Part shown: in pieces, positions 22,655 through 36,316 of the stretch
Numbering within the stretch: the stretch's first letter is position 1
Layout of the letters: each line of letters begins with the position of its first letter
Assembly (NCBI GenBank): GCA_024398965.1
Contig: JAKSIF010000009.1
Location: forward strand, 25,581 to 89,580
DNA length: 64,000 nucleotides
Direction of reading: 5' to 3'
Origin: Fibrobacter sp.
Lineage (GTDB): Bacteria > Fibrobacterota > Fibrobacteria > Fibrobacterales > Fibrobacteraceae
Translations under genes and position numbers: made by a program
Notes under the pieces: generated by a model
Databases searched by the model: none
Told to the model about the DNA's origin: nothing
The model's input: the letters and a program-made list of their open reading frames with translations, nothing else

Positions 22655-23047
22655 GAAAACTACCGGCAACGCCGGTAGTTCCGTAAAAGCCTTCTGGCGG
22701 TCATGATAACTGTTTATTGAGGTTTGGACCGCCGCTTTTTTAGCGATTTGGCAAAGAGGCGGTCTAATATCCTTATAATTTAGATTTGGACCGCCATTTT
22801 GCCTTGATTAAGACCGTTTTTTTGGATTTCAGATAGCAAAACGAACCAAAAGACGGTCCAAGAGAATGCTTTTAATCAAATGGACCGCCACACTTCTGTG
22901 AAAATGGCGGTCTAAAAATGATATTTGATGTACTTGGACCGCCAAACTGAATATTATGCGCAAAATTATGCAGGTGACAGATTATTGTGCGTGCCCTTGC
23001 ACACCGCTAGTATTGTAAGGCAACGCTCGTATATGAAGAACCACCGG
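22655..23047 (+). mobile_element. Non-autonomous IS200-derived element (MITE-like)
   Basis: 22655-22706 matches 34112-34163 at 49/52 nt (only the 3-nt hairpin loop differs); 22987-23047 matches 34724-34784 at 56/61 nt; no transposase between the ends. Confidence 0.85.
22696..22943. repeat. Array of four 38-bp palindromic units GGCGGTC-N24-GACCGCC
   Basis: Units start at 22696, 22758, 22852 (GACGGTC variant) and 22906; each has exactly 24 nt between the arms. Confidence 0.85.
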
Positions 23048-23268: not shown

Positions 23269-23853
23269 TTGAAAAGGCTGTACAAAAAAGGTTATACGCT
23301 TATTGAAGTCCTAGTGGTTGTGATCATCATAGGCGTTTTGTCGTCTATGGGGTATGCCGGCTTGAATCAAGCTGTAATCAACGCAAGAACTAAGGATGCC
23401 GCAAGAAACGTAGCTGCTTTCATAAATAGCATTGGAGCTTTGTCTACACAACAAAACAAGGCAATGTGCTTAAAGATTGTTGATGGAAAAACACTGGCTG
23501 CATACAAAGCCGATGATGCTGGTACAGGATGCGATGTGCAGGGTGGCGTTATAGACAAGATTACCTTAGAGGCTGCCTTGAAATTTGTTTCATCAGGAAA
23601 ATCTCCCAATAATGCAGTTACCGTTCTTTCCTCGAATTCTGCAGAAGCTATTGTTAAGCATCGCATCGGTTATAGCCCCTTCCGTGGAGTGTGCTCGTCC
23701 TCTACGGAGTGCTCTGGAGAGGGATTCTATTTAATTCAGTACGGTTCGACAGACTTGTATGCGGCTGTTGCTAAATCTCCCTCTGAACGTGCTGTTGTTT
23801 CGTTTTGGGGCTTTGGTGCAGATGAAAGCAGCATTGGTTGGAGTGAACTATGA
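23269..23853 (+). CDS. Type IV minor pilin, FimT/FimU-like
   Basis: Class III signal KKG|YTLIEVLVVVIIIGVLSSMGY with E5; probable TTG start at 23269 after GGAGA (ORF track start 23209). Confidence 0.8.
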   Translation: MKRLYKKGYTLIEVLVVVIIIGVLSSMGYAGLNQAVINARTKDAARNVAAFINSIGALSTQQNKAMCLKIVDGKTLAAYKADDAGTGCDVQGGVIDKITLEAALKFVSSGKSPNNAVTVLSSNSAEAIVKHRIGYSPFRGVCSSSTECSGEGFYLIQYGSTDLYAAVAKSPSERAVVSFWGFGADESSIGWSEL

Positions 23854-24317
23854 GCAAGCTGGTGTTTGGAAATAAACGTGGTATTGGGATTACAGAAATC
23901 CTGATTGCATCCCTTGTCCTGGGGTTCTTGCTTACTGCGCTTTTGCAGTTGCAGGAAAGCAATCGTCTTGCTCTGTTGCGAATTCGTTCTCGTGACGGAG
24001 CCGTTGATGTTGCAAGGGACGTGATGGATTCGCTTTCAGCAATTGGAATTAGCAGCCTAAGGGGTGTTGGTGACGACAACGAAATAAAGTTGCAGCGTTC
24101 AAGGTCATGGGAGGGTCAGCCAGGTTTGGTGCCCTACACAATAAAAGTGGATTATGATGTTACAGTCAAAGTGAGTGGAGACGATTTGTTCCACAGTACT
24201 GAGTCATCAAAATTTGAAACAATTGACAATGTATTTGCCAAGAAAATTGATGTCAACGTAGCCTGGCAATTTAAGGGAACTACCCAGTCCATAAATGTAT
24301 CGGGGGTATTACGATGA
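23850..24317 (+). CDS. Type IV minor pilin, PilV-like
   Basis: KRG|IGITEILIASLVLGFLL with E5; ATGA overlap with the previous gene. Confidence 0.75.
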   Translation: MSKLVFGNKRGIGITEILIASLVLGFLLTALLQLQESNRLALLRIRSRDGAVDVARDVMDSLSAIGISSLRGVGDDNEIKLQRSRSWEGQPGLVPYTIKVDYDVTVKVSGDDLFHSTESSKFETIDNVFAKKIDVNVAWQFKGTTQSINVSGVLR

Positions 24318-25609
24318 GTAGTAAAACTTCAAAGAACGGTTTTACCCTGATAGAACTGTTGGTCTATATGGGCTTGATTGGCATTATTGTTGTAATTGCT
24401 GGCGAAGCTTTTTCTAACAGCACGAAATTCCGCATTCGTACCGAAGGTATGCTGAAAGGACACGCTGAGGCTCAGGATGTTGCTGGAATTCTTCGAGAGG
24501 ACTTGAATCAGATGGGGGCAAAGACATCCTTTGAAACGGATGGGGCCGTCGTTCAGTCTGCCGCATACATTGACGCCGCTTCGGAAACGGATAAATCATC
24601 ATTTTCCTTGAGTAAGGATCGTGATACGATTGTCTTCAACAAAATTGTCTATGATGAGTCTGGCAGTGCACAATATGTACAGCGAGTAAGTTGGATGTTT
24701 GTTCCAAACAAGGGGTTATATAGAGGTTGTAAGACTCTTTGGCCGTCTAGCGCGGATCCTGCAGAGTGCCATTCTAGCGATTCGGATCCGGTCTTGATGT
24801 CGAACAAGGTACGATCGTTTAAACTGTGGCCTGGAGTTCGTCTAGAAGATGGAGAATCTGGAAGAGAAGATGTGTTTGCTCTGGGGACTGGTTTTACCCT
24901 TGCGCCTCGTACGGTTAGTACTAGTTCAACTTACTATCTGATGCCCGTTCTAACTCCGAATGCGGAGGAGACATCTGTTGATGTAAGAGGGTTACAGACT
25001 AACGATGGCAATAGTGGGACAAGAATTGCTTCTCAACTTTATTTGCTTGAAGGCGGTAGTCCAACGTTGAGCACTGATGCATGGAATAGCTGTAAGACAT
25101 TTACTTTTGACGCGTTCTCTACGTATGCCGTTTCCATGAATATTTCCTCTAGTTGCAGAACGAGTTCCCCAAATTACATGTGTGATTTCCAAGCAGGAGT
25201 AGATCATATTGGCATTGGATTTAGAACTCCAGAAGGAACTTTGATTCCTGGCATTAATGATTTTATGACTTATCCTACGCAGTCTATTTCGGGAGCTGAA
25301 GCGGCTCGATATGCTGAGTTTAGTGTGCCCACAAGAGTGGATAACGCCTGCCTTGCCATAACAATTGCGTTGTACTCACCAGAGGTCTACAAAGGAAACT
25401 TTTCTATTTCAAATATAACGATATTTAAACGAAATGCTTCCGAGTATGTATTCAACCAGAGTGTAGGGACTGCGGCTTATGGAGCTTCGTCTTCAGAAAA
25501 CAAAAACGAAGTGAAGGCATTTAAACTAGTAATGGATGTGTCTGTGAATAAAGAAGTTTCTCATGTTGAAAATATCATTCTGACACCAAACAACGGAACG
25601 GAAGGTTAG
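24314..25609 (+). CDS. Type IV minor pilin, PilW-like (large globular domain)
   Basis: KNG|FTLIELLVYMGLIGIIVVIAG with E5; ATGA overlap. Confidence 0.82.
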   Translation: MSSKTSKNGFTLIELLVYMGLIGIIVVIAGEAFSNSTKFRIRTEGMLKGHAEAQDVAGILREDLNQMGAKTSFETDGAVVQSAAYIDAASETDKSSFSLSKDRDTIVFNKIVYDESGSAQYVQRVSWMFVPNKGLYRGCKTLWPSSADPAECHSSDSDPVLMSNKVRSFKLWPGVRLEDGESGREDVFALGTGFTLAPRTVSTSSTYYLMPVLTPNAEETSVDVRGLQTNDGNSGTRIASQLYLLEGGSPTLSTDAWNSCKTFTFDAFSTYAVSMNISSSCRTSSPNYMCDFQAGVDHIGIGFRTPEGTLIPGINDFMTYPTQSISGAEAARYAEFSVPTRVDNACLAITIALYSPEVYKGNFSISNITIFKRNASEYVFNQSVGTAAYGASSSENKNEVKAFKLVMDVSVNKEVSHVENIILTPNNGTEG

Positions 25610-25610
25610 T

Positions 25611-28600
25611 ATGAAATTGCAGAAAAATAAAGGCGTTGCCCTTATCACAGTTCTTTTGTTTATGTTGGTAGCAACAATTGCTGCTACGGCCGTTTTTAAA
25701 TGGATTCAGGCCCAGAACCGGGCAAGCGCTTCTCAACTCAAGCAGAATGAGGCTTATCAGGCGTCTCAAGCTGGTATAAATGCGGCAAGGTCCTGGCTTG
25801 CCTATAATGGGCAAGAAACTGCAGCTTTAGTCACACAGTTTGAACGAGAAAAAACACCCATTCTCCTAGATTCTATGCTGACTCCGTTAACATCAAAAAT
25901 GCAGCAGGGGTATTCTGTATACTTGACGAATGTTGACGCAAGCAATGCATCGGATGTAAAGTTGAAGATTGTCTCTGTGGGCAAGGGACGACATAATTCA
26001 GTTTATTCCCAAGTGGCGATTCTTGGAGTAAACGGTTTGTATAAGGTGAAAGTCCCTGTTAAGATTTCTAAGGCGTCTGTGCCATATAATTACTCCTATT
26101 TTGGAGGTTCCACCACTTTCCAGGGCGAACATAAGGGAACCGCCATGTTAATCAATGGAAACTGGAGCGGAAACCCTGGCGAACTTGATGAGGATTTCAT
26201 TGTTACAGGAAATGTCTCATTAAGTGGTAATAAAATTGAAATCGGGAAAACAGCCTGTATTGGCGGGGACATGAATACCCAGAACGGTTCTATTGTCAAT
26301 GATATCTATGTGGGTGGAAAGTCTGTTAACATGGATATTTCAGCAAGGGGAAATGCCTATTTCGAAGGGGATGTTTTTGAAAAATCTTGTTGGTCATGGC
26401 CTGGAGGTTCCAGTTGCTCTTATAGTGTAGGTGCAAAGTCTGATACAATTGCCAAGAACATGACGTTGAATGGAACTATGGGACTGAATTTGCAAAGTCA
26501 CAATTTTGTTGTAGGCGGAAATCTTTGCTTAACCAATAGAGGAAAAATTGATTTTGGAACAAGCACGAGCAAGAAGTTTATGGCTGTGGGTAACGTGTAT
26601 ATACCTTCGGGTACGAACGCCCTTCAGCCTTTTGAAGATTGGAGTGATGAAGCTGATAAAAGAGCGGGCAGCCGCTATCTTGGAGGACCTGGTAAAGACG
26701 TATATGTTGCCACGGCAAATGTATGTAAAAATTCTGATCGTCAAAAATATAGACTTAGTAACTGTCCAACAACATATACACTGTATGATTACGAAGGAAA
26801 TGTCTCTGGGCAGACAAAATTCTCTAGCGATGGAAATGTAACCAAATCCATTCCTGCAACGGCTCCGTTTGAATGTGCAGAATCTGTCAAGGAATACTGT
26901 GATTCTAAATGGGAGAAAAAGGCTGGGGGATGCGATGGAAGCAAGTATAAGATCGACGACTTGCTGTCAGCTGGTTATGATCAATTCAAATCTTTTGCAA
27001 ATAAGGCGAAGTGCACCCAGAATGTGCTAAATTCCAGCACTACTGAATTCGATGCTTCTGCAATGAGTTCCTGCTACACAAATCAATTAAATGACGCCGA
27101 CAGCAACAGGGCTAACCTTTATAATGAATATATGGTTGTCCGCTTTGCTGGGGGAAGCGAAGACGGAGCTGCCAAAATACTGGGAAGTGTCAAAGGCAAG
27201 CTAAAGGGAAAGTTTATTTTCCTTTTTGAGACTCAGGTAAATTACAATATTTATATGCCCGAAACTACGGATGACAGCTATGTATTTGTCTATATGAAGG
27301 AAGGTAGTACTTCTGAAATTTGGCAGGGGGGAAGCACAGGTCCTTGGAACTACTTCTTCTATTTGGAAAAGAGTGTCAAAAAGTTAACAACATCAAAGGA
27401 TTGGAACGGATCGTTCTATGCCGCAGTAGGTGATGGCAATTGCGCTAAAATCAGTCAAATGGATGGTGGTGGAAAACTCAATTTTGACCCTGAACTAATG
27501 CAGGACATGATTGATGCTGGTATCATCTGCGCTTATGGTGAAGTGTGTACTCCGTCAACGGGTTCATCTACTCCTGGCAGTGGCTCTGGTGAAGAAAGCT
27601 CTGGAGCATCAGATGGTTATGACAACCAGTGGATTTCCTATGGCCCTCGTGTAAAAATAAATCTTGCATCTCAGTATGCGAATACGGAGTCTTTTGAATA
27701 CAGCGAACTGAATCCGTCCTTAATCGTAATGCCTCGCTTGATTTACCTGGCCAAGGACAAGAAACTTTACGAAAATGGATCTTACCAGTATTCCGTATTG
27801 TACTTGGGCGGTGCAAAAAATCCCTCGGATGAGGGAACCTTCGCGGGTGATGTCAGTTGCTATGTAGGAAATAAAGTGGAAGCTGGAGCCTCCATCGGAA
27901 AATCAGACCCCTTTACCAAAACTGGTTTGCATACTTGCTTATATAAGGAATATGTTGACGGAGTTCAGTTATCTTCTTATTTCTGGGTTTGGGTCGTTGA
28001 CGAATCTTCAAGTACCGTGGTTTCTTTCCCTTCTGCCTCAGATGAATTTGAATGTTCTGAAGGTGGCGAAACGAAACAAATTGCGGTAAATATTGCTAAC
28101 AGTGGAAATGAGGGAAAGCTAAAGGTTCTTGTGTACAATACAACAGGAAGTGGTATTGGTATTTCCGCAAATAGTTCCTACTTGTCCTCCAAGGGGGCAG
28201 AAGGTTATACCACAACCTATGAATTTAATGTTCCCAAGGCTACAAGTATTCCTGATTTGTTTACCATGACCATGAATGACTGCGAAAACGTGACGGGATT
28301 CGTCCAGTTCCAGATGGTCGACGACAATGCAGAAGACCTTGTTTTTGTAGGTTCTCCTAGCAATTTGCTTTATATTTTCTCAGGTCCTGAGCCTAATGTG
28401 CAAAGAGAAGAAATTTCTCAGGATATGACCTTGGACGCTCAAGTCAAGGATTCTTTGAATAAAATACCTGATTGTAAAGATATAGATGGAGGCATGATTG
28501 GAGAAGAGGTATGGAGTGCTCGCACCATAGAAAGTAATCCTGGTGGTTGTAAGAAACGCCAAAGTCCCTCCATTGGCCCGTGGCTTTGCAATGCTGGCGA

Positions 28601-31600
28601 GACCGTTGACAACATGACTGCAGCTGGTTATGACGAGGATCTGTGCGAAGTTGTTCAGACGAATCATCCTCAAGTTGCTGGCGGAAAAATTATGACTTAT
28701 GTTTACGCAAGTCTTAAAGCTCGCCCCTTGACCTTGACCATTGATGTTAGCGGCATTAAGGGTCGTGTGACTACAGATACAGTGAATACTTGGCATAAGG
28801 AAAGTCGGACCAATGTAGATGACACGGAATATGAAGTTGCTGTTATCGATGAATATGGCAAGGAACTTGGCGTCTGCCGTACAGGAGGAGCTGGCCAATG
28901 TAAATTTACCACTTATGCAGGCGGTACCTACCATCTGTTAGCTTCTTCCACAAACTTCAGCCACTATAGTGTATATTGCAACAGTAACGCTACCTGTACC
29001 AAGACTAAATGGTACTACCATAAGGGAATCAAGAGAGAACTTGTGGTAGTCATGAAGGAAGATACTAAGGTCAGGGCAAATTTCACGAGAACAGGTTATT
29101 GCTTTACTGAAGATTTCAAGCATCTACACAGTTACTGTAGTTATGATGTGACCCCGGTGGCTTACGCAGGTGGAGAAGAACTTTGGTTAAAGAATGGTAA
29201 AGGCGGGTGGGTTGATAAAGGTTCAATTAATGGTTATTTAAAAAATTTAGATGGGTCTGGAACGTTCAATGCCGTAGAGGCTACTGTTCACGATTATGCA
29301 AGAGGTCCACAGCTGGATGGGTCAACTGCTTATTGCATAGACCAGTGTGTGACTACAAAGAATTATCGGTATACGGGTAATAAGGAAACTGGTGTTCCCG
29401 ATGCAAAATTTCGATTCTATCCTACCATCTGTTCTGTTACGGGGAACAAGGATATTCCCGAGAATGAAACTGCTGCTTATAAGGAAGATCAGAATAAGGA
29501 TTACTGGAGCTATTGGGACCCCGGAGAAAGAGAATATCCTTCTCCAAAAGCTTCAAACAAACATTATGCTTGTGCTGTTGGAAAGAACGCCTCCGACCCG
29601 GCAATTAGAGACTGTGATCCGGAAACGGATCCAAAACACTGTATTATTGATGAATGTAAGGGACCTGCTCCATTAGACATGCCTAGAGTTAGGGGCGGCT
29701 ATTACCGCCCTGACGATCCCTATTCTCCCTGGATGCGAGTCTTGGGAGTACATATGTCCCAGAATGTGAAATCGGGACCGATTATCGGTCAAGATATAGG
29801 CTCCCAATGGAATACGGCTCCTTTTGTCAACAGAGACCAGGGATATATGACAACTGGTCATAATACAACGACTCCTGATGTTGTTATGCGCAAAGCTGCG
29901 GCTGGGTACAATGGTACCTATAGCAAAATTTTTAAGATTATGACGAATACAGCATCGTATTCTTGGGGTAGTGGCAATACATTTATATTTAGGTCTAACC
30001 CGTCTGCCACATCCTTCTACCACGCTACAGTAATTGCTGGTGACCAAATTGAAAAGTATAAGAACCAGGGTGTTTCCGCAAACGAAACCCGTGGTAGCCA
30101 TATTCTCGTATGTTATTGTACAAATGAAACATGCCCAGCCTATAGTCCCTACGATCCTCCGACAAGCGGTGAATATAGCCGCGGTTGGGGGTCTGCTGTA
30201 AACCTAGCCTCTCGATTCCGTGAAACAGGAAAAAAACCATACAACGATTACTCGAATTCAAATCCGGGAAAAGGTTTTAAGGATTTTTGGAACATTGATG
30301 GTGGTACTGACAATTTAGGGCACTGTGCAGTAGCCCCTGTTGTTACGAATATTCCATTCTCTGAATTGAAAGATCGAGTCCTTGAACTTAAGGTTGACTT
30401 AGATGAAGATACGGCATTTGTCACTCTGGCTTATTCTTCAGACATTTCCAATGTTGCTGGCGTTGGTATCAGCTCTTACATGGTGTATTCCAGGGCGTCA
30501 TTTAACCTAAACGACCCCGAACTCTTCGGGTTTAAAAAATCCTTGGGATACAAGGAAGAAGAAACCCCCATGTACAAATTTAAGCACAATGTGAATGGCG
30601 CTCAGGATTCTGCAGTTTATGTTGGATTCTCTATGCATGATCCCTATGAGCAGGTTTATAATATTGAATGGCGTTCTGGCGGTAACTGCGATACAAAGTT
30701 GAATATGCGTCCTCAGATCTACTGTGGATTTGAAAATAATGTGGCCCCAGTAAATAAGACCAAAATGCCTGTGTACTATGTGTATGACTACTGCCCCGAT
30801 GGTGCCGAGTGTGATTGTGATTATTCGTTTACTTTGAATGGAAATCCCTGGTATGGAACCCTTAGTGAAGTCCGTAACTATTCTTATGGTGAACTTGCGG
30901 TTTCTGCAAATTGTCGTGTTGTCCGTGATGGCATTGATGGCGCAACCCGTACAGAGGAACATGTCACGGGAGCTTGCAATGCTTTCTCTACCTATGATCC
31001 GTCAATTGAAAATTCTTGTACGGAAACATACAACATATTCCTTCAAAGAGAAGTTGCGTCAAAAAGCGATAACTTTGATTATATCGATCTGAATGAATCA
31101 AGGATATCCTCCATTGACAGAACATACGCTTTTGCGGATAACAAGGTGTCTGTGAGTGTTTCGCCAAACACATCAGTTGATGAAGCCAGCACTGCGACAA
31201 ACATTAGTGACCTCAATATGACCATTACATGTGGCGAAGGTAGCTGTGAATATGCCAAGAACTGGTACTTAAAGGATGCCTCCTATTATAGCACTACAAC
31301 AACTCTTGGGGTCAAGGAACTAGACGGGGTGACTTATAACTATCCGAGACTGCAAAGAAATGTTAATTTGGCTGGAACGAATTTCCCGAAACTTCTAAAA
31401 CTTGGCTTTAATGTGGAAGGTGCCTGGCATAATCCTGATCCTTCTCAAAAGGGTTTGCCTAACGAGTCTGGTGTTGATACCTTGTATCTAAAGCTAAGAA
31501 GTAAACTTGGGACTCCCTACCTGAACCTCCGTGATGCAGATCTTAGTTTTGATTTTATTCAAAGCTGGAATATGGATACCGTGCAGTATTGGCTGCAAGA

Positions 31601-34070
31601 TAATTTGGGGAATAACAGCCCCGTTATGAATATTGAAACCAATTACGGTAAGGCAACCGAAGAAAATAGAGCTCTGTATGTGGGTGGGGATGATGGTTAT
31701 GGCGGTTATCAGCCTATAACTGTCGGAACCGTACCAGGTGCTTATGGAATCCCCGCAGAATGTTATTCCATTAGTAGACCAAACCAGTCTTTTGATCCGG
31801 CTCATTGCAGTGATGTGGAAGTTGATGGGAAACATTACAACTGTTGCCAGGAAGGTCTTGCCTGGTGGCTGGATGCCAATGGACAAAATGTATTCCGTAG
31901 ATACTCTACGGGAAGCATGACTTCTGAATGGTATAAGGGTGTCACCCCTGATTTCGATGTTGAACGCGTGTCGAAAATCTTCTTTAGGCTTGTTAATCGA
32001 AACGAAGCCGGTGCTGGTGAAACGGATATTCGTGCAGAGTCCTTTAACGGCGATATTTCGGAAACTGGAACAGCAGCCTTCGTTCATGTAGGTAACCTGA
32101 AGGCATCTTGTCCCAATGCGTTTGGTTTGGATAACTGCCGTGTAAATGGCGTTGACGCTAAAGATGCTGCTAAGAAGGCTGTGTTCAATGCCGGCGAAAC
32201 GGTTATCTTGACTGCAAATGTAACCAAGTGTAAGGATGCCTACATTACAAGTAGCATTGATGGTTTGGAAGGGGATACTCCGGAATGTGTGGGCATGACA
32301 ACTCTCGCAAGTTCTCCGGCAACACTCCCCATGGAAGAAAGCGATCAAGATATTTCCCTAACAGTAAGCTCTGCGATGTCCAATTGGATGACCAAGTCTT
32401 GTAGCCAGTACATTCATGTGAACCCTCTTAAGTCTAACTGTACTTGGGTAGGAACAGATGCGGTTAACTATCTGGATGATCCTGCAACTCGGGATAAGCA
32501 TGAGGTTGTTTATGTGAATGACGGAAGAAATTTCCAGGCAAGTAAACCTAAGTTAGGGGCTTCTTTCGAGGGATCCTTAACAACGTTACGTACATCTCTC
32601 TACAAAAACGGAGGTATCTTTAAAAACACCGCCGGGAATGTTGAAAATTCGAATATTGAACCCTATAAAACATCCAATGCTTTTACAAAGACCTTTATCC
32701 CCAATGGTAGCGGTAAGTACGAATTCCTTTATGGAACCAATGGAAGAAGTGCGACAAACGAGCATTCCGGTGTTATCGGTGATGGAAACTGCTATGTAGA
32801 TGTTGTTGTGGAACCGGTGAAGATATCTTGTTCTGTTGCAGAGGACTCTAAGGTTGCAACGGGTGGCAAGAATATTATTTTCTCGGGAACAACTAACGCT
32901 CATAAAGATGTGGCTAACAGATATTATAAAGTGACAGGACCTGATGGTTATACTTTTACATCAGGTGCTAATCCTTTTAATGTGGTAAATGTAACTGAAG
33001 GCGCAAATACATTTACCTATAATGGTTATAAAGCTCCCCATGACCCTGGAACCTATGAAGTGAGTGTAAGTTTTTACAATCAACCATACGAAAGCTGCGG
33101 CACATTCAATGTAAGTTCAATGGCGATATCAAATTGTAATGCTCCAGACGTAACATACGTGGATGACGGAAGAAATGTTGGAAGACCATCGTATTCCGTT
33201 ACCTTATCTAATTACGGAACTAGTTCCAAAAGAGGCTTCTATAGAGATGGAATCTATTTCTCTGACGATGGCAATGTATCCTCAAATTCAGGGGTATTTG
33301 CAAAGAACGCCTACGATCCAATGGGTGGGTTGACTACACCAGAAAGCAAATACAAGACACATGAATTCACACTCCTTTATGGTGTGGGCTCAAGGGCTTC
33401 TCAACCTACTGGGGAATATGCTACCCCAACAGGCTGTGTTCAGAAAGTGACAATTGAACCTGTAACCTATACTTGTCAAATTGATGAGTCTTCTCGATTT
33501 GTCAAGGGAAACACATCTGTAACGATTACTGGGGTAACCAACGCTCACAGGGACGTTGCTAATCGTAGGTTGAGAATTACTGGGCCTAATGGGTATTCTA
33601 AGATTTTGACTGATTTTAACGTAACTAATGTTTCTGAAGGTGCAAATATCATTACATACAAGGGGTATACAGTTCCTGCTACCAATGGAGAATATCATGT
33701 TTCCATGAGTCTTAAGGATCAACCCTATGTGGATTGCGGTACCATTACAGTCGGAACAGAAAATCTCGCTTCCAAGGTAAGCTTTGCTTTGGAATCTGAT
33801 CAGATTGAACGTTCTGGTTATGCTGATAGACAAATGTTTAATTTAGCATCGGGACAAGTTGTCTCCGTCAATAAGACTACGTCAAAATTGACTATCGGAT
33901 GCTGGAGTGGAACGCCCAAGAATATCAAGTATCAGAATTGTCGAAACGAGATAAAGACTAAAACGATACCTTGCAATAATTGGACTCCCCTTGACGACAT
34001 TCCTGAACAATGTACAGTTTATGTGCAGGCTGATGGAAATGACATTCACATGAAATTTGGTGCTTGGTAA
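25611..34070 (+). CDS. Giant PilX/GspK-like minor pilin fused to a Cys-rich multi-domain putative adhesin (2819 aa)
   Basis: NKG|VALITVLLFMLVATIAATA (no E5), QAYQASQAGINAARSWL PilX-type helix, IVSVGKG strand; about 2650 aa of Gly/Ser/Thr/Cys-rich extracellular-type sequence. Confidence 0.8.
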   Translation: MKLQKNKGVALITVLLFMLVATIAATAVFKWIQAQNRASASQLKQNEAYQASQAGINAARSWLAYNGQETAALVTQFEREKTPILLDSMLTPLTSKMQQGYSVYLTNVDASNASDVKLKIVSVGKGRHNSVYSQVAILGVNGLYKVKVPVKISKASVPYNYSYFGGSTTFQGEHKGTAMLINGNWSGNPGELDEDFIVTGNVSLSGNKIEIGKTACIGGDMNTQNGSIVNDIYVGGKSVNMDISARGNAYFEGDVFEKSCWSWPGGSSCSYSVGAKSDTIAKNMTLNGTMGLNLQSHNFVVGGNLCLTNRGKIDFGTSTSKKFMAVGNVYIPSGTNALQPFEDWSDEADKRAGSRYLGGPGKDVYVATANVCKNSDRQKYRLSNCPTTYTLYDYEGNVSGQTKFSSDGNVTKSIPATAPFECAESVKEYCDSKWEKKAGGCDGSKYKIDDLLSAGYDQFKSFANKAKCTQNVLNSSTTEFDASAMSSCYTNQLNDADSNRANLYNEYMVVRFAGGSEDGAAKILGSVKGKLKGKFIFLFETQVNYNIYMPETTDDSYVFVYMKEGSTSEIWQGGSTGPWNYFFYLEKSVKKLTTSKDWNGSFYAAVGDGNCAKISQMDGGGKLNFDPELMQDMIDAGIICAYGEVCTPSTGSSTPGSGSGEESSGASDGYDNQWISYGPRVKINLASQYANTESFEYSELNPSLIVMPRLIYLAKDKKLYENGSYQYSVLYLGGAKNPSDEGTFAGDVSCYVGNKVEAGASIGKSDPFTKTGLHTCLYKEYVDGVQLSSYFWVWVVDESSSTVVSFPSASDEFECSEGGETKQIAVNIANSGNEGKLKVLVYNTTGSGIGISANSSYLSSKGAEGYTTTYEFNVPKATSIPDLFTMTMNDCENVTGFVQFQMVDDNAEDLVFVGSPSNLLYIFSGPEPNVQREEISQDMTLDAQVKDSLNKIPDCKDIDGGMIGEEVWSARTIESNPGGCKKRQSPSIGPWLCNAGETVDNMTAAGYDEDLCEVVQTNHPQVAGGKIMTYVYASLKARPLTLTIDVSGIKGRVTTDTVNTWHKESRTNVDDTEYEVAVIDEYGKELGVCRTGGAGQCKFTTYAGGTYHLLASSTNFSHYSVYCNSNATCTKTKWYYHKGIKRELVVVMKEDTKVRANFTRTGYCFTEDFKHLHSYCSYDVTPVAYAGGEELWLKNGKGGWVDKGSINGYLKNLDGSGTFNAVEATVHDYARGPQLDGSTAYCIDQCVTTKNYRYTGNKETGVPDAKFRFYPTICSVTGNKDIPENETAAYKEDQNKDYWSYWDPGEREYPSPKASNKHYACAVGKNASDPAIRDCDPETDPKHCIIDECKGPAPLDMPRVRGGYYRPDDPYSPWMRVLGVHMSQNVKSGPIIGQDIGSQWNTAPFVNRDQGYMTTGHNTTTPDVVMRKAAAGYNGTYSKIFKIMTNTASYSWGSGNTFIFRSNPSATSFYHATVIAGDQIEKYKNQGVSANETRGSHILVCYCTNETCPAYSPYDPPTSGEYSRGWGSAVNLASRFRETGKKPYNDYSNSNPGKGFKDFWNIDGGTDNLGHCAVAPVVTNIPFSELKDRVLELKVDLDEDTAFVTLAYSSDISNVAGVGISSYMVYSRASFNLNDPELFGFKKSLGYKEEETPMYKFKHNVNGAQDSAVYVGFSMHDPYEQVYNIEWRSGGNCDTKLNMRPQIYCGFENNVAPVNKTKMPVYYVYDYCPDGAECDCDYSFTLNGNPWYGTLSEVRNYSYGELAVSANCRVVRDGIDGATRTEEHVTGACNAFSTYDPSIENSCTETYNIFLQREVASKSDNFDYIDLNESRISSIDRTYAFADNKVSVSVSPNTSVDEASTATNISDLNMTITCGEGSCEYAKNWYLKDASYYSTTTTLGVKELDGVTYNYPRLQRNVNLAGTNFPKLLKLGFNVEGAWHNPDPSQKGLPNESGVDTLYLKLRSKLGTPYLNLRDADLSFDFIQSWNMDTVQYWLQDNLGNNSPVMNIETNYGKATEENRALYVGGDDGYGGYQPITVGTVPGAYGIPAECYSISRPNQSFDPAHCSDVEVDGKHYNCCQEGLAWWLDANGQNVFRRYSTGSMTSEWYKGVTPDFDVERVSKIFFRLVNRNEAGAGETDIRAESFNGDISETGTAAFVHVGNLKASCPNAFGLDNCRVNGVDAKDAAKKAVFNAGETVILTANVTKCKDAYITSSIDGLEGDTPECVGMTTLASSPATLPMEESDQDISLTVSSAMSNWMTKSCSQYIHVNPLKSNCTWVGTDAVNYLDDPATRDKHEVVYVNDGRNFQASKPKLGASFEGSLTTLRTSLYKNGGIFKNTAGNVENSNIEPYKTSNAFTKTFIPNGSGKYEFLYGTNGRSATNEHSGVIGDGNCYVDVVVEPVKISCSVAEDSKVATGGKNIIFSGTTNAHKDVANRYYKVTGPDGYTFTSGANPFNVVNVTEGANTFTYNGYKAPHDPGTYEVSVSFYNQPYESCGTFNVSSMAISNCNAPDVTYVDDGRNVGRPSYSVTLSNYGTSSKRGFYRDGIYFSDDGNVSSNSGVFAKNAYDPMGGLTTPESKYKTHEFTLLYGVGSRASQPTGEYATPTGCVQKVTIEPVTYTCQIDESSRFVKGNTSVTITGVTNAHRDVANRRLRITGPNGYSKILTDFNVTNVSEGANIITYKGYTVPATNGEYHVSMSLKDQPYVDCGTITVGTENLASKVSFALESDQIERSGYADRQMFNLASGQVVSVNKTTSKLTIGCWSGTPKNIKYQNCRNEIKTKTIPCNNWTPLDDIPEQCTVYVQADGNDIHMKFGAW

Positions 34071-34072
34071 TT

Positions 34073-34103
34073 AAAGAAAGGCTCCCTTCGGGGAGCCTTT
34101 TTT
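34073..34103 (+). terminator. Intrinsic terminator of the pilin operon
   Basis: AAAGGCTCCC-ttcg-GGGAGCCTTT plus T-run. Confidence 0.85.
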
Positions 34104-34235: not shown

Positions 34236-34673
34236 ATGAATGATAGAAATAAATCAACAGCCCATACCACATGGAATTGTAAGTACCATATCGTGTTTGC
34301 ACCCAAGTTTAGAAGGAAAATTCTATACAATCAGAAACGAGAGCTTGTAGGAAGAATTCTCAGAAAATTGTGCGAATGGAAAGATGTGGAAATAATAGAG
34401 GCCGAAGTCTGTCCAGACCATATTCACATGCTGGTCGCCATACCGCCGAAACTCTCCGTTTCGAGTTTCATGGGGTATTTGAAAGGAAAGAGCAGCCTGG
34501 AATTGAATGACACGGTTCCTGAATTGCAGAATAAGTACGGGAACCGAGTCTTTTGGTGCCGAGGATATTATGTTGACACGGCAGGAAAAAACGCAGACCG
34601 AATTAAGGCGTATATCCGGCAACAGTTAGAGGAGGACAAACTAGGAGAACAACAGTCAATGTTTGGCAAGTAG
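34236..34673 (+). CDS. tnpA: IS200-family Y1 (HUH) transposase
   Basis: CKYHIVFAPKFRR, PDHIHML (HUH), GYLKGKSS, FWCRGYYVDT, IKAYIRQQ. Confidence 0.95.
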   Translation: MNDRNKSTAHTTWNCKYHIVFAPKFRRKILYNQKRELVGRILRKLCEWKDVEIIEAEVCPDHIHMLVAIPPKLSVSSFMGYLKGKSSLELNDTVPELQNKYGNRVFWCRGYYVDTAGKNADRIKAYIRQQLEEDKLGEQQSMFGK

Positions 34674-34822
34674 TGCCCGTTTACGGGCGGCCTAGTAAGG
34701 ACCCTAGCAGGTGGCAGATCGACGTGCGTGCCCTTGCACGCAGCTAGTATTGTAGGGCTACGCCCGTATATGAAGAACCACCGGCGAAGTGAACTGACCC
34801 CAAAAAGTTGGACGGTTTAAAG

Positions 34823-35719
34823 TTAGGATAAAACTGGGTTATGAGTCCGGTATTGTACCGGACTCATTCCTTTTAGGCGCAGTTTTATCCGATCATTGTT
34901 ATAGTACTCGATGTATTTCTTGAGTTCTTGCTTGAAGTGGTCCATATTCTTGAAGGTGTTGGGATAGAGCAGTTCCGATTTCATAATGCCGAAGAAGTTC
35001 TCCATCATGGCGTTATCCAGGCAGTTGCCCTTACGGCTCATACTTTGCACGATGTCATGGTCTCGCAGAGTATTTTGATAGCTGTAGTGCTGGTAATGCC
35101 AGCCTTGATCGGAGTGCAGTACCAGTTTGTCACCAACATGCTTTCGTTCTAGCGCCTTGTCCAGCATCGTCATCACCATTCGCAGATCCGGATGGTCTGA
35201 TATGGTGTAGCTGATGATTTCTCCGTTGTACATGTCCAGTATCGGCGACAGGTAGCACTTGTCCTGGCCGATATTTATTTGTGTCACGTCCGTTGCCCAT
35301 TTCTGGTTTGGAGCTGATGCAATGAAGTTCCTGTTGATTACGTTTGGTGCAATTGCTCCTACTTCGCCCTTGTAGGAACGGTACTTGTTACGTCTGCGGA
35401 CGTTCTTCAGGTTTTCCTCTTTCATGATGCGGTATACCGTCTTGTGGTTAATCGAGAAGCCTTCGTTTCGTAGTTCGTCCCTTATGCGTCGGTAGCCGTA
35501 ATAGCCCTTGTTCTTTGCGTGTACGGCCTTGACTCGCTCTCGCTCGTCAGCGTAGCGGTCCGTCTTTTTCCGGATGTTGTAGTAGTATGTGGAGCGGGAG
35601 AGTCCGCTTGCCTTCAGGAGATGCTTGAGCGCGTGCTTGTCGCTCAGTCCTCGGACTGTCTCGGCCCTATACCGAACATCTCGGCATTCTCTTCCTGGTC
35701 TAGGGCCTTCAATTTTTTT
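34823..35719 (-). CDS. IS3-family OrfB DDE transposase (expressed by -1 frameshift)
   Basis: Frame extends upstream of the tracked ORF: SGLSRSTYYY, YGYRRI, then KWATDVT, LHSDQGWHY, SRKGNCLDNAMMENFFG; A7 slippery run at 35713-35719. Confidence 0.88.
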   Translation of the reverse strand, partial: KKIEGPRPGRECRDVRYRAETVRGLSDKHALKHLLKASGLSRSTYYYNIRKKTDRYADERERVKAVHAKNKGYYGYRRIRDELRNEGFSINHKTVYRIMKEENLKNVRRRNKYRSYKGEVGAIAPNVINRNFIASAPNQKWATDVTQINIGQDKCYLSPILDMYNGEIISYTISDHPDLRMVMTMLDKALERKHVGDKLVLHSDQGWHYQHYSYQNTLRDHDIVQSMSRKGNCLDNAMMENFFGIMKSELLYPNTFKNMDHFKQELKKYIEYYNNDRIKLRLKGMSPVQYRTHNPVLS

Positions 35720-36168
35720 AGGTAGGCATTCTCCGCTTCAAGATACTCCACACGCTCTCTAAGGCGTTCAAGTTCGGTCATGCCTTTTGTGGTTCTCTTC
35801 TTCTTGGGCATCTTAGGTGGCCTCCCTTTGGGCTTTGTTGCAAGCAGTTCTTCATAGCCGCCATGGCGGTATTTTCTCAGCCAGGACTTGATTGTACTGA
35901 AGCTGATTCCGTACTTGACGGTCGCTTCGCAACAAGATAGCGATTGTTGGATCACAGCGTCAATAGTTTGACGTTTCAGCTTCGCCGTCGCTTGAACATT
36001 CGGCTTCCGATTGGTACGCCAATCGCCTGTTAGCCTAAATTGCTGTATCCGTCGTTTGATTTCACTCAATTCAATCCCCGTTTGTTTGGATATGGAGGGC
36101 GAATCAACGTGTGAAAGATGTAGCTCCAGGACTTTAGCCCATTCTGCTTCTGTGTGTTTCTTATACAT
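35644..36168 (-). CDS. IS3-family OrfA (HTH)
   Basis: Two HTH-like segments, WLRKYRHGG, LRERVEYLEAENAYLKKLKAL coiled-coil end. Confidence 0.9.
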   Translation of the reverse strand: MYKKHTEAEWAKVLELHLSHVDSPSISKQTGIELSEIKRRIQQFRLTGDWRTNRKPNVQATAKLKRQTIDAVIQQSLSCCEATVKYGISFSTIKSWLRKYRHGGYEELLATKPKGRPPKMPKKKRTTKGMTELERLRERVEYLEAENAYLKKLKALDQEENAEMFGIGPRQSED

Positions 36169-36316
36169 GAAAACCCCGAAAGTTGTGTCCAACTTTCGGG
36201 GTTCACATCACTTCGCCGGTGGGTCACTTTTTTTTCTTCTATAATATTTTCGGTTTTAAAATGAAAATTACACATTTTGTGTTACGCAAAATGTGTAATT
36301 TTTGTATATTGTGGTT

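What the first reader, a model, noticed from the sequence alone, without database searches (positions are those of the whole stretch)
23269..34070. Minor-pilin operon ending in a 2819-aa PilX-adhesin fusion instead of a separate PilY1
Seen: four translationally coupled genes with class III prepilin signals; three have E5 (G|YTLIE, G|IGITE, G|FTLIE) and the last lacks it (G|VALIT). Established: this is the FimU-PilV-PilW-PilX (GspH-I-J-K) tip-priming set, PilX/GspK lack E5 and are usually a few hundred aa or less, and in Pseudomonas and Myxococcus the adhesin is a separate PilY1. Here no pilY1 follows, and PilX carries about 2650 extra residues: a beta-solenoid-like stretch (about 26100-26600), a Gly/Ser linker (about 27560-27620), many Cys pairs and repeated Ig-like modules. 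The operon is visibly more AT-rich than icd or rpsA. Inference: a pilus tip complex with a covalently built-in giant adhesin, possibly an interchangeable cassette for plant-fibre or cell binding. This is the best candidate for an undescribed system in the window.
Basis: partly seen in the sequence, partly recalled or inferred. Interest (0 to 1): 0.82.

Follow-up and report, generated by a model that had tools for sequence, protein, structure and literature searches.

The report
Giant pilus-tip pilin cassette, Fibrobacter
A gut/rumen Fibrobacter carries a four-gene set for the tip of its type IV pilus in which the last, cap-type pilin is 2,819 residues long; the design is known in smaller form from Thermus ComZ and cyanobacterial PilX, and this is a plausible but untested candidate for how the fibre-degrader grips surfaces.

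Summary
Four overlapping genes (23269-34070, + strand) encode prepilin-type proteins. Three have Glu5. The last, of 2,819 aa, lacks it.

An AlphaFold model of residues 1-1190 (pLDDT 79.5) shows a small pilin fold, a beta-solenoid, a conserved alpha/beta region, a Gly/Ser linker and Ig-like sandwiches. Foldseek hits the Thermus tip pilin ComZ.

The genome (99.9% complete) has one PilB/PilC/PilD/PilMNOPQ/PilT machine and no PilY1.

The cassette is not a one-off fusion. 131 of 151 Fibrobacteraceae genomes carry 1-3 copies, with last genes of about 2,000-3,200 aa. At least 266 clusters at 50% identity exist in public data.

Residues 1-740 are conserved family-wide. The last 120-420 residues are replaced even between near-identical genes.

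Most likely this is a type IV pilus priming and tip complex whose cap subunit carries its own long, exchangeable distal body. An adhesin role, and any plant-fibre ligand, are inferred only.

The design is already published for ComZ, cyanobacterial PilX/HpsA and modular pilins. This is therefore a new, extreme variant and not a new kind.

This scan noted the same family earlier in three other Fibrobacter genomes.

The parts
23269..23853 (+). Gene 1: GspH/FimU-like minor pilin, 194 aa from TTG 23269. Leader MKRLYKKG, mature N-terminus YTLIE with Glu5.
   Evidence: ORF; translation. GGAGAG lies before the TTG. Pfam N_methyl E=2.2e-7. NCBIfam PRK10506 E=1.5e-9 and GspH E=1.8e-7 over the first ~70 residues, both below cut-off. 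Homologues are present in 28 of the related loci parsed.
23850..24317 (+). Gene 2: small I-position minor pilin, 155 aa. Leader ends KRG, mature IGITE with Glu5.
   Evidence: No Pfam or NCBIfam pilin match. It is conserved at 41-51% identity in 33 related loci, with G11, G13, I14 and E16 invariant. The family profile gives no significant match to any solved structure; the best hits, over the N-terminal helix, have E of 0.1 or more.
24314..25609 (+). Gene 3: large J-position minor pilin, 431 aa. Leader ends KNG, mature FTLIE with Glu5.
   Evidence: N_methyl E=4.5e-6. It is present directly upstream of the giant gene in 54 related loci. All 55 members of the alignment hit only N_methyl in Pfam.
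25611..34070 (+). Gene 4: giant K-position (PilX/GspK/ComZ-like) cap pilin, 2,819 aa. Leader MKLQKNKG, mature VALITVLLFML with no Glu5.
   Evidence: NCBIfam T2SS_GspK E=4e-7 for residues 7-72. PilX_N scores 15 bits and 22.3 bits, below its cut-off. The family is documented.
25635..26090 (+). Pilin module of gene 4 (residues 9-160): a long N-terminal helix and a small beta-sheet.
   Evidence: AlphaFold model m37affd98fa26 has helices 10-65 and 67-80 and strands 100-147. pLDDT is mostly 84-93 from residue 41 onward, with dips. Foldseek hits ComZ 6qvi at E=1.7e-5.
26097..26603 (+). Beta-solenoid (residues 163-331).
   Evidence: Regular short strands, pLDDT mostly 85-95. Conserved in all 63 relatives compared. 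G183 and G200 are invariant; N182, V198, T199 and C216 are nearly invariant.
26646..27530 (+). Conserved alpha/beta region (residues 346-640) of unknown function. Residues 404-740 are conserved family-wide.
   Evidence: No match in Pfam, NCBIfam or PDB sequences.
27549..27614 (+). Gly/Ser/Thr-rich flexible linker (residues about 647-668).
   Evidence: Translation. pLDDT is below 50 at residues 651-667.
27618..29090 (+). Array of Ig-like beta-sandwich domains (residues 670-1160), conserved in about 25-50 of the 63 relatives compared, declining along the region.
   Evidence: All-beta model, pLDDT 70-90. Foldseek hits TIE (6fwv), SdrD, complement/alpha2-macroglobulin MG-domain arrays and SbsC.
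29181..32810 (+). Subclade-specific body (residues 1191-2400), Cys-rich and predicted mostly beta.
   Evidence: Homologous only in three representative loci plus the close relatives P0005-P0009. AlphaFold confidence was too low to assign folds.
32811..34067 (+). Hypervariable distal end (residues 2401-2819). It includes a tandem duplication, residues 2369-2529 (32715-33197) against 2585-2738 (33363-33824). It ends with the motif C-T-V-Y...K-F-G-A-W.
   Evidence: Identity to P0005 falls from 97-100% to 22-50% after residue 2400. Identity to P0006 falls to 22% in the last ~120 residues. Only three homologues exist among 5.8 billion clusters. The duplication is and the C-terminal motif.
34077..34100 (.). 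Perfect 10-bp-stem GC-rich hairpin 7 nt after the stop codon; a likely terminator.

Best explanation
This is the minor-pilin (priming and tip) operon of the cell's single type IV pilus machine.

The four products would be inserted in the inner membrane and cut after the conserved Gly by the one prepilin peptidase. They would then assemble in the order K, then J and I, then H, into the complex that seeds the fibre and stays at its tip.

The K subunit lacks Glu5, as cap subunits do. Its small pilin module continues into a rigid beta-solenoid, as in ComZ. After that come about 2,400 further residues of linked, narrow beta domains. The tip therefore carries its own long stalk and distal head, and no separate PilY1 is needed.

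The proximal third (residues 1-740) is the conserved fitting to the pilus. The distal end is exchangeable and most likely binds a ligand.

Shown here: the genes, the signals, the fold of residues 1-1190, the gene inventory, the distribution, and the pattern of conservation and recombination.

Inferred: cleavage, incorporation at the tip, passage through the secretin, and adhesion. The ligand is unknown.
For: **Class III signals and E5 pattern.**

**Operon structure.** The genes overlap or nearly abut.

**Fold.** The AlphaFold model shows a pilin fold, a solenoid and Ig-like arrays. Foldseek hits ComZ at E=1.7e-5 and prob 0.98, and multi-Ig surface proteins.

**Machinery in the genome.**
- One PilD.
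- One PilC platform next to a PilT.
- PilB.
- pilMNO, a 665-aa gene and pilQ in one cluster.
- Major-pilin candidates.
- No PilY1 in a 99.9%-complete genome.

**Conservation.**
- The same H-I-J-K or J-K arrangement occurs in 69 loci.
- 131 of 151 family genomes have a match, 80 of 85 among high-quality genomes.
- At least 266 clusters at 50% identity match at E<1e-30.

**Selection and exchange.**
- Purifying selection acts on the body, with dN/dS 0.03-0.16.
- dS is mosaic along the gene, from 0 to 0.59.
- The C-terminus is replaced between near-identical genes.

**Published parallels.**
- ComZ as a tip pilin (PMC6561018).
- Cyanobacterial PilX solenoid proposed to replace PilY1 (PMC13759059).
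- Pili implicated in Fibrobacter adhesion to cellulose (PMC3079729, PMC4668043, PMC6851124).
Against: - No experimental datum exists for cleavage, piliation or binding.
- The HMM matches to GspK, PilX_N and GspH are all below the curated cut-offs and cover only the N-terminal part.
- The I and J assignments rest on position alone.
- No adhesin, lectin or CBM domain is detectable in this protein.
- The distal 1,200 residues could not be modelled (pLDDT 40.8).
- A mature protein of about 300 kDa must pass the PilQ channel. That is plausible only if it is a thin chain of small domains.
- A second, small E5-less pilin-like gene lies next to the second secretin (contig C62). The giant cassette therefore need not be the only priming set.
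- No pilus machinery gene lies in the window.
Confidence: 0.68

Rival explanations
1. The set forms the tip of a short, T2SS-like pseudopilus, for example with the second secretin, and not of an extended pilus. The giant protein would be pushed to the cell surface or released, acting as a surface-displayed or secreted protein.
For: - The best named HMM matches are to the T2SS pseudopilins GspH and GspK.
- The genome has a second secretin with its own small pilin-like genes.
- It also has an extra 441-aa GspE-like ATPase.
- Older Fibrobacter papers speak of 'type II secretion' (PMC3079729, PMC4668043).
Against: - Only one platform protein (T2SSF) gene exists, and it sits next to a PilT.
- A PilMNOPQ cluster and two PilT-like retraction ATPases point to a type IVa pilus.
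- No GspC/L/M-type genes were seen near either secretin.
- The matches to GspH and GspK are far below cut-off and cover only the part shared with type IV pilus minor pilins.
Confidence: 0.12
2. The N-terminal hydrophobic helix is only a membrane anchor. The 2,819-aa protein would stay in the inner membrane as a periplasmic or envelope-spanning protein and never be polymerised. The pilin-like neighbours would serve another role.
For: Cleavage is untested. Valine at +1 and the lack of Glu5 are also compatible with an uncleaved signal anchor. ComZ itself is not predicted to be a PilD substrate (PMC6561018).
Against: - The leader ..K-G|V-(A/S)-L-(I/V) is essentially invariant in about 70 homologues.
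- The gene always follows one to three true prepilin genes.
- The modelled fold after the helix is a pilin sheet, not a generic anchor.
- A periplasm is too narrow for a chain of more than twenty extended beta domains.
Confidence: 0.1
3. It is a pilus-tip protein, but its job is not adhesion to plant fibre. Alternatives are DNA capture as proposed for ComZ, binding of the cell's own exopolysaccharide as proposed for cyanobacterial PilX-EPS, cell-cell contact, or variation driven by pilus-specific phages.
For: - The closest solved relative, ComZ, binds DNA (PMC6561018).
- No carbohydrate-binding domain is detectable here.
- Hypervariable ends and recombinase-linked paired cassettes are typical of surface structures under phage or host pressure.
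Against: - The distal 2,000 residues have no counterpart in ComZ.
- Pili have been linked to cellulose adhesion in F. succinogenes (PMC3079729, PMC6851124).
- One relative has a weak, sub-threshold CBM64 match at its very C-terminus.
Confidence: 0.3
4. The giant ORF is an assembly or annotation artefact, either a fusion of separate genes or a decaying pseudogene.
For: It lies in an AT-rich stretch next to IS200 and IS3 elements. The genome is a 151-contig draft.
Against: - There are 8,457 nt without a stop.
- Full-length homologues of 1,974-3,201 aa occur in dozens of independent assemblies, including complete genomes.
- dN/dS is 0.03-0.16.
Confidence: 0.01

Closest known systems
ComZ of Thermus thermophilus (PDB 6QVI; PMC6561018)
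   Same: Both are E5-less, GspK-like pilin modules joined to a large beta-solenoid. Both are encoded among minor pilins and argued to sit at the pilus tip. Foldseek gives a hit at E=1.7e-5.
   Different: ComZ chains in the PDB are about 510-520 residues and consist of pilin plus solenoid only. Here the solenoid is short (about 170 aa) and is followed by about 2,400 more residues. There is no detectable sequence similarity. Whether the chain returns to the pilin sheet as in ComZ is unknown. ComZ binds DNA.
Cyanobacterial PilX (PilX-Com and PilX-EPS/HpsA) core minor-pilin sets (PMC13759059, Oct 2026)
   Same: Both are four-protein priming sets whose cap pilin carries a beta-solenoid. In the EPS subfamily, lineage-specific domains are grafted onto its distal end. 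The cap pilin is proposed to replace PilY1 in genomes that lack it. Some genomes carry several sets.
   Different: Synechocystis PilX proteins are 482-799 aa, and HpsA-like ones exceed 1,280 aa. The Fibrobacter proteins are 2,000-3,200 aa, with a different conserved middle region and a hypervariable end. No NCBIfam family other than GspK matched at E<=0.1. The phylum and ecology differ.
GspK / PilX / PilK cap subunits of the GspH-I-J-K and FimU-PilV-PilW-PilX sets
   Same: It holds the last position in the operon and lacks Glu5. The leader and first helix match NF037980 (E=4e-7) and PF14341.
   Different: Scores are far below the family cut-offs. There is no GspK alpha-domain: no PF03934 match fell in this gene. 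It is about ten times larger. In Pseudomonas, Neisseria and Myxococcus the adhesin is the separate PilY1/PilC, which is absent here.
Modular pilins (PilB and PilC of Streptococcus sanguinis; CofB; doi 10.1101/2021.01.27.428410)
   Same: All graft effector modules onto a pilin carrier so that the filament tip presents them.
   Different: The surveyed proteins carry recognisable domains such as vWA and lectin. The most extreme multi-domain case cited has 860 residues. Here no added domain has a database signature, and the protein is more than three times longer.
Verru_Chthon cassette proteins A-D (TIGR02600, 02598, 02599, 02596), an uncharacterised four-gene cassette of Verrucomicrobia
   Same: It also has three prepilin-type proteins plus one large protein (model of 1,296 positions). 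The first 56 positions of that model weakly match the N-terminus of this K protein (E=1.2e-3). Proteins D and C weakly match genes 1 and 3.
   Different: All scores are far below cut-off (17.9 against 332 bits for A). There is no similarity beyond the N-terminal helix. It is not a member.

Membership tests
Type IV pilins (class III signal peptide, Pfam N_methyl / TIGR02532) | Short basic leader ending in Gly, followed by about 20 hydrophobic residues. | tested here: met
   All four proteins show it. N_methyl is over its cut-off for genes 1 and 3. Genes 2 and 4 show the motif but no over-threshold HMM match.
Type IV pilins (class III signal peptide, Pfam N_methyl / TIGR02532) | Glu at mature position 5, except in cap subunits. 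| tested here: met
   YTLIE, IGITE and FTLIE have Glu5. VALIT does not. The same pattern holds in the related loci.
Type IV pilins (class III signal peptide, Pfam N_methyl / TIGR02532) | Cleavage and N-methylation by prepilin peptidase. | not testable with these tools
   One Peptidase_A24 gene is present in the genome. Processing itself needs protein chemistry.
GspK / PilX cap minor pilins | Sequence match above the curated cut-off of NF037980 or PF14341. | tested here: not met
   29.9 bits against 130 for NF037980. For PF14341, 15 and 22.3 bits against 25.5. Only residues 7-72 match.
GspK / PilX cap minor pilins | Last gene of an H-I-J-K operon, lacking Glu5. | tested here: met
GspK / PilX cap minor pilins | GspK alpha-helical domain inserted in the pilin sheet (PF03934). 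| tested here: not met
   No PF03934 match falls in this gene. The model shows a beta-solenoid instead.
ComZ-like / cyanobacterial PilX solenoid cap pilins | Pilin fold joined to a beta-solenoid. | tested here: met
   AlphaFold model, with pLDDT mostly 84-95 (with dips) over residues 41-331. Foldseek hits 6qvi at E=1.7e-5 and 5.8e-5.
ComZ-like / cyanobacterial PilX solenoid cap pilins | Solenoid inserted between the penultimate and last strands of the pilin sheet, so that the chain returns to the sheet. | tested here: inconclusive
   No return is seen within residues 1-1190. A short C-terminal motif ending in Trp is shared by many otherwise unrelated C-termini. The first 200 residues have no Cys, so the near-universal C-terminal Cys cannot bond to the pilin module. 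The full-length protein exceeds the modelling limit.
ComZ-like / cyanobacterial PilX solenoid cap pilins | Sequence homology to ComZ or HpsA. | tested here: not met
   Profiles A2 and A3 find no ComZ chain among PDB sequences, even at E<=10 for A2. No NCBIfam match other than GspK was found.
PilY1 / PilC tip adhesins | C-terminal beta-propeller (PF05567). | tested here: not met
   No match in the protein or anywhere in the genome at E<=0.1.
Verru_Chthon cassette (TIGR02596-02600) | Matches above cut-off to proteins A, C and D. | tested here: not met
   A: 17.9 against 332 bits. D: 24 against 70 bits. C: 18.4 against 256.5 bits.
GspI/PilV and GspJ/PilW (genes 2 and 3) | Fold or sequence match beyond the N-terminal helix. 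| tested here: inconclusive
   Family profiles match solved pilins only over the first 30-50 residues.

The most novel reading that the evidence does not exclude
Fibrobacteraceae display a roughly 300-kDa 'mega-adhesin' as the covalent cap of their type IV pilus. Its hypervariable distal module would be the long-sought pilus component that grips plant fibre or another gut surface. Cells with two or three cassettes would choose between alternative tips through a tyrosine-recombinase-driven DNA inversion lying between divergent cassettes.
Probability: 0.25. Interest if true: 0.75.

Novelty: new variant of a known kind. Interest (0 to 1): 0.55.

Why it matters
Fibrobacter is among the most effective cellulose degraders of the rumen and hindgut, and it needs tight contact with the fibre. 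Pili have been implicated in that contact since 2007. Yet the papers read here discuss only a handful of small pilin genes, and none mentions these giant proteins.

A family present in about 90% of Fibrobacteraceae genomes gives a concrete, testable candidate for the part of the pilus that touches the substrate. It has a conserved pilus-fitting base and an exchangeable head.

It also extends the 'cap pilin carries the adhesin, no PilY1 needed' design from Thermus and cyanobacteria to another phylum, and to a size three to five times larger. That raises the question of how such a tip passes the secretin.

Tried and rejected
- **Paralogues in the same genome.** tblastn found none for the giant gene. 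There is only a weak hit of gene 1 to another pilin on contig C128.
- **Domain searches.** Pfam and NCBIfam on the four proteins gave only N-terminal pilin matches. Pfam on three other family members and on 63 C-terminal 200-residue pieces gave only scattered sub-threshold Ig-like, CBM or lectin hits. None recurred and none was in the window's protein.
- **PDB sequence searches.** Profiles of the giant's N-terminal 385 and 1,519 positions found nothing. Profiles of the H, I and J families hit only the N-terminal helix.
- **AlphaFold on residues 1620-2819.** With an 8-sequence alignment, mean pLDDT was 40.8. The model is unusable, so no fold search was run on it.
- **Internal repeats.** Only one duplication was found.
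- **Fisuc_0251-0253.** I first guessed that the S85 pilin genes Fisuc_0251-0253 flank a giant gene. I dropped this guess: a complete 3.8-Mb genome in the set has both its copies near 1.37 Mb, and no paper mentions Fisuc_0254.
- **Recombinase in this genome.** The recombinase-flanking inverted repeat seen in relatives is absent from the window. No close homologue of that recombinase is in this genome (25% identity or less).
- **C-terminal return strand.** Whether the C-terminus returns to the pilin sheet could not be tested. Only contiguous sequences of at most 1,200 residues can be modelled.

Full report
**What is in the sequence**

Four genes lie on the + strand at 23269-23853, 23850-24317, 24314-25609 and 25611-34070. 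The first two junctions overlap by 4 bp, and one base separates the third and fourth genes.

The first gene most likely starts at TTG 23269. GGAGAG precedes that codon, and the resulting 194 aa match the 195-aa gene called in a relative.

Each product begins with a short basic leader ending in Gly, followed by a hydrophobic helix. The mature N-termini read YTLIE, IGITE, FTLIE and VALIT, so only the last lacks Glu5.

Pfam N_methyl is above threshold for genes 1 and 3. NCBIfam gives sub-threshold N-terminal matches:
- GspH and PRK10506 for gene 1.
- GspK for residues 7-72 of gene 4, at E=4e-7.

A perfect hairpin follows the stop codon at 34077-34100.

The operon is 43.0% GC in a 49.3% genome. 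GC3 of the giant gene is 38%, against 65% in the neighbouring icd.

The flanks are icd upstream and an IS200 transposase, IS3 remnants, an ATPase and an OLD-family nuclease downstream.

**The giant protein**

An AlphaFold model of residues 1-1190 was built on 64 sequences cut from related loci. Its mean pLDDT is 79.5. In order, it shows:
- a long N-terminal helix (residues 10-65) and a second helix;
- a small antiparallel sheet (100-147), which together with the helices forms a pilin fold;
- a beta-solenoid (163-331);
- a conserved alpha/beta region (346-640);
- a disordered Gly/Ser linker (651-667);
- several beta-sandwiches (670-1160).

Foldseek against the PDB returns the Thermus thermophilus competence pilin ComZ (6qvi, E=1.7e-5, prob 0.98). 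The other hits are arrays of Ig-like domains: B. anthracis TIE, SdrD, complement and alpha2-macroglobulin MG domains, and SbsC.

ComZ is a GspK-like pilin with a beta-solenoid inserted in its sheet. Its authors argue on steric grounds that it sits at the pilus tip (PMC6561018).

The rest of the protein has 70 Cys in total and a single internal duplication. It has no match in Pfam, NCBIfam or PDB sequences. A model of residues 1620-2819 failed at pLDDT 40.8. What the distal half looks like remains open.

**Machinery**

The genome is 99.9% complete. It holds:
- one prepilin peptidase;
- one platform protein next to a PilT;
- a 647-aa PilB;
- a pilM-N-O, 665-aa gene, pilQ cluster;
- two major-pilin candidates;
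- no PilY1.

A second secretin on contig C62 is followed by a 348-aa membrane protein, a 291-aa E5-less pilin-like protein and two small pilins. The giant cassette may therefore be one of two priming sets sharing one motor. That is what was recently proposed for cyanobacteria (PMC13759059).

**Distribution**

The giant protein has 16 relatives of 1,956-2,936 aa in the 90%-identity collection.

A scan of species-representative genomes gave 69 loci, almost all labelled Fibrobacter or Fibrobacteraceae. One is the cultured F. intestinalis ATCC 43854. The few with other labels look like binning errors.

In these loci the giant ORF is 1,974-3,201 aa. It has an almost invariant start..K-G|V-(S/A)-L-(I/V)-x-V-L-L-F-M-L-V-A-T-I-A. 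It is preceded by:
- a J-like pilin of 415-500 aa in nearly all loci;
- I- and H-like pilins in about half of the loci.

A profile of the first 385 positions finds 266 clusters at 50% identity with E<1e-30 among 1.84 billion representatives. Nearly all are 2,000-3,100 aa long.

Whole-genome searches give the following:
- 131 of 151 genomes of the family have a match, 80 of 85 among high-quality genomes.
- 94 of 100 sampled genomes of the same genus have a match.
- There are 1-3 copies per genome.
- Sister families of the order give weaker matches, to the pilin part only, in ORFs of 1,350-1,500 aa.
- None was found in the 113 genomes searched from the other 16 families of the phylum.

**Conservation pattern**

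- Residues 1-340 and 404-740 align in all 63 relatives compared.
- Residues 740-1180 align in roughly 25-40 of them.
- Everything beyond residue 1200 aligns only within a small subclade.

Against the closest relative (P0005), identity is 92-100% from residue 401 to 2400. It is 84-87% in the solenoid (residues 201-400). It then drops to 22-50% over the last 420 residues. Against P0006 the break comes in the last 120 residues. Only three proteins in 5.8 billion clusters match residues 2200-2819.

dN/dS along the body is 0.03-0.16. dS jumps between 0 and 0.59 from segment to segment. The gene is therefore under purifying selection and is a recombination mosaic with a replaceable end.

Closely related cassettes sit in different genomic neighbourhoods.

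Giant genes are on average 3 GC points below their flanks in 38 of 46 loci. The AT bias is thus a family habit and is not by itself proof of recent import.

**Interpretation**

The best reading is a type IV pilus priming and tip set in which the cap subunit carries a long stalk and a variable head.

This matches a published design. The parallels are:
- ComZ;
- cyanobacterial PilX, whose solenoid is proposed to take over the capping role of PilY1;
- the PilX-EPS/HpsA subfamily, which adds lineage-specific domains at the solenoid's distal end (PMC13759059);
- the wider concept of modular pilins (doi 10.1101/2021.01.27.428410).

The present protein fails the sequence thresholds of GspK and PilX_N. 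It lacks the GspK alpha-domain and shows no sequence similarity to ComZ. It is also not a Verru_Chthon cassette protein A. I therefore file it as a new variant that works like these proteins, not as a member of any named family.

Adhesion is inferred from three things: the architecture, the hypervariable end, and the literature linking pili to cellulose adhesion in F. succinogenes. No ligand-binding domain was found.

**Context in relatives**

In the locus of P0005 (L076), a second cassette lies divergently. Between the two sits a tyrosine recombinase flanked by 150-nt inverted repeats that are 93% complementary.

L009 has a 77%-identical recombinase flanked by the same 20-nt core repeat, 1,154 nt apart.

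Recombinase homologues lie within a few kb upstream of the giant gene in nine further loci. In at least four of these, they sit between divergent paralogous cassette genes.

This looks like an invertible switch between alternative tips. It is absent from the window.

**Earlier notes of this scan**

Three earlier reports describe the same family in other Fibrobacter genomes and reach similar conclusions. My Foldseek link to ComZ was obtained before I read them.

**Limits**

Noticed in passing
L076:6229-7694 and L009:6387-7580: A tyrosine-recombinase gene lies between two divergent minor-pilin cassettes. It is flanked by inverted repeats: 150 nt at 93% complementarity in L076, and the same 20-nt core, CTATTTTGCCATAAWATA, in L009, about 1.15 kb apart. 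This looks like an invertible switch that could choose which tip cassette is expressed. It is not present in the window.
   Followed up: partly
L024, L028, L030, L038, L040, L046, L049, L050, L052, L059 (recombinase hits): Homologues of that recombinase (27-35% identity) lie within a few kb upstream of the giant gene in nine further loci. In L024, L028, L038 and L046 they sit between long inverted repeats made by divergent paralogous cassette genes.
   Followed up: partly
own genome, contig C62:1975-6205 (outside the window): A second secretin (581 aa) is followed by a 348-aa membrane protein, a 291-aa E5-less pilin-like protein with a solenoid-like tail, and two small prepilins (124 and 104 aa). 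This is a compact second pilin set, possibly a second priming complex or a pseudopilus.
   Followed up: partly
window 25611-34067 compared with L076:10001-18544: Synonymous divergence jumps from about 0 (residues 1-160 and 2201-2400) to 0.44-0.59 (residues 161-400 and 761-1190) within one gene pair. The giant gene is a recombination mosaic.
   Followed up: yes
P0013, residues 2652-2693: The extreme C-terminus of one family member has a weak, sub-threshold match to the cellulose-binding module CBM64 (E=5.8e-4, 20.3 against 25 bits). One other member gave E=0.009. The window's protein shows nothing of the kind.
   Followed up: partly
C-termini of the giant proteins (window 34008-34067 and loci): Nearly all family members have a Cys within the last 3-25 residues, and many end in Trp. 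A subset with otherwise unrelated distal regions shares C-(T/S)-(I/V)-Y...K-(F/W)-x-N-W. Its function is unknown.
   Followed up: no
L012, L014, L017, L031, L075: Typical Fibrobacter cassettes sit on contigs filed under Sodaliphilus, a Methanomethylophilaceae archaeon, Alistipes onderdonkii, Bacteroidaceae and Senegalimassilia. These are most likely binning errors in the metagenome-assembled genomes.
   Followed up: no
window 34236-36192 and 22655-23047: An IS200-type transposase (34236-34673) and split IS3 remnants (34823-36192, - strand) lie directly downstream of the operon. Closely related cassettes sit in different neighbourhoods in other strains (L076, L078). Another note of the scan proposes IS200-mediated mobilisation. 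I did not test that.
   Followed up: no
G029:C6:141447-142571: One genus member's copy of the giant gene has an in-frame TAG inside the conserved N-terminal region. It may be a pseudogene or a sequencing error.
   Followed up: no
related loci L015, L023, L027, L031, L044, L045, L051, L053, L054, L056, L063, L066: In many loci my motif scan found only the J-like pilin directly upstream of the giant gene, with no H- or I-like pilin. J and K appear to be the obligate pair, and H and I may be shared between cassettes.
   Followed up: partly
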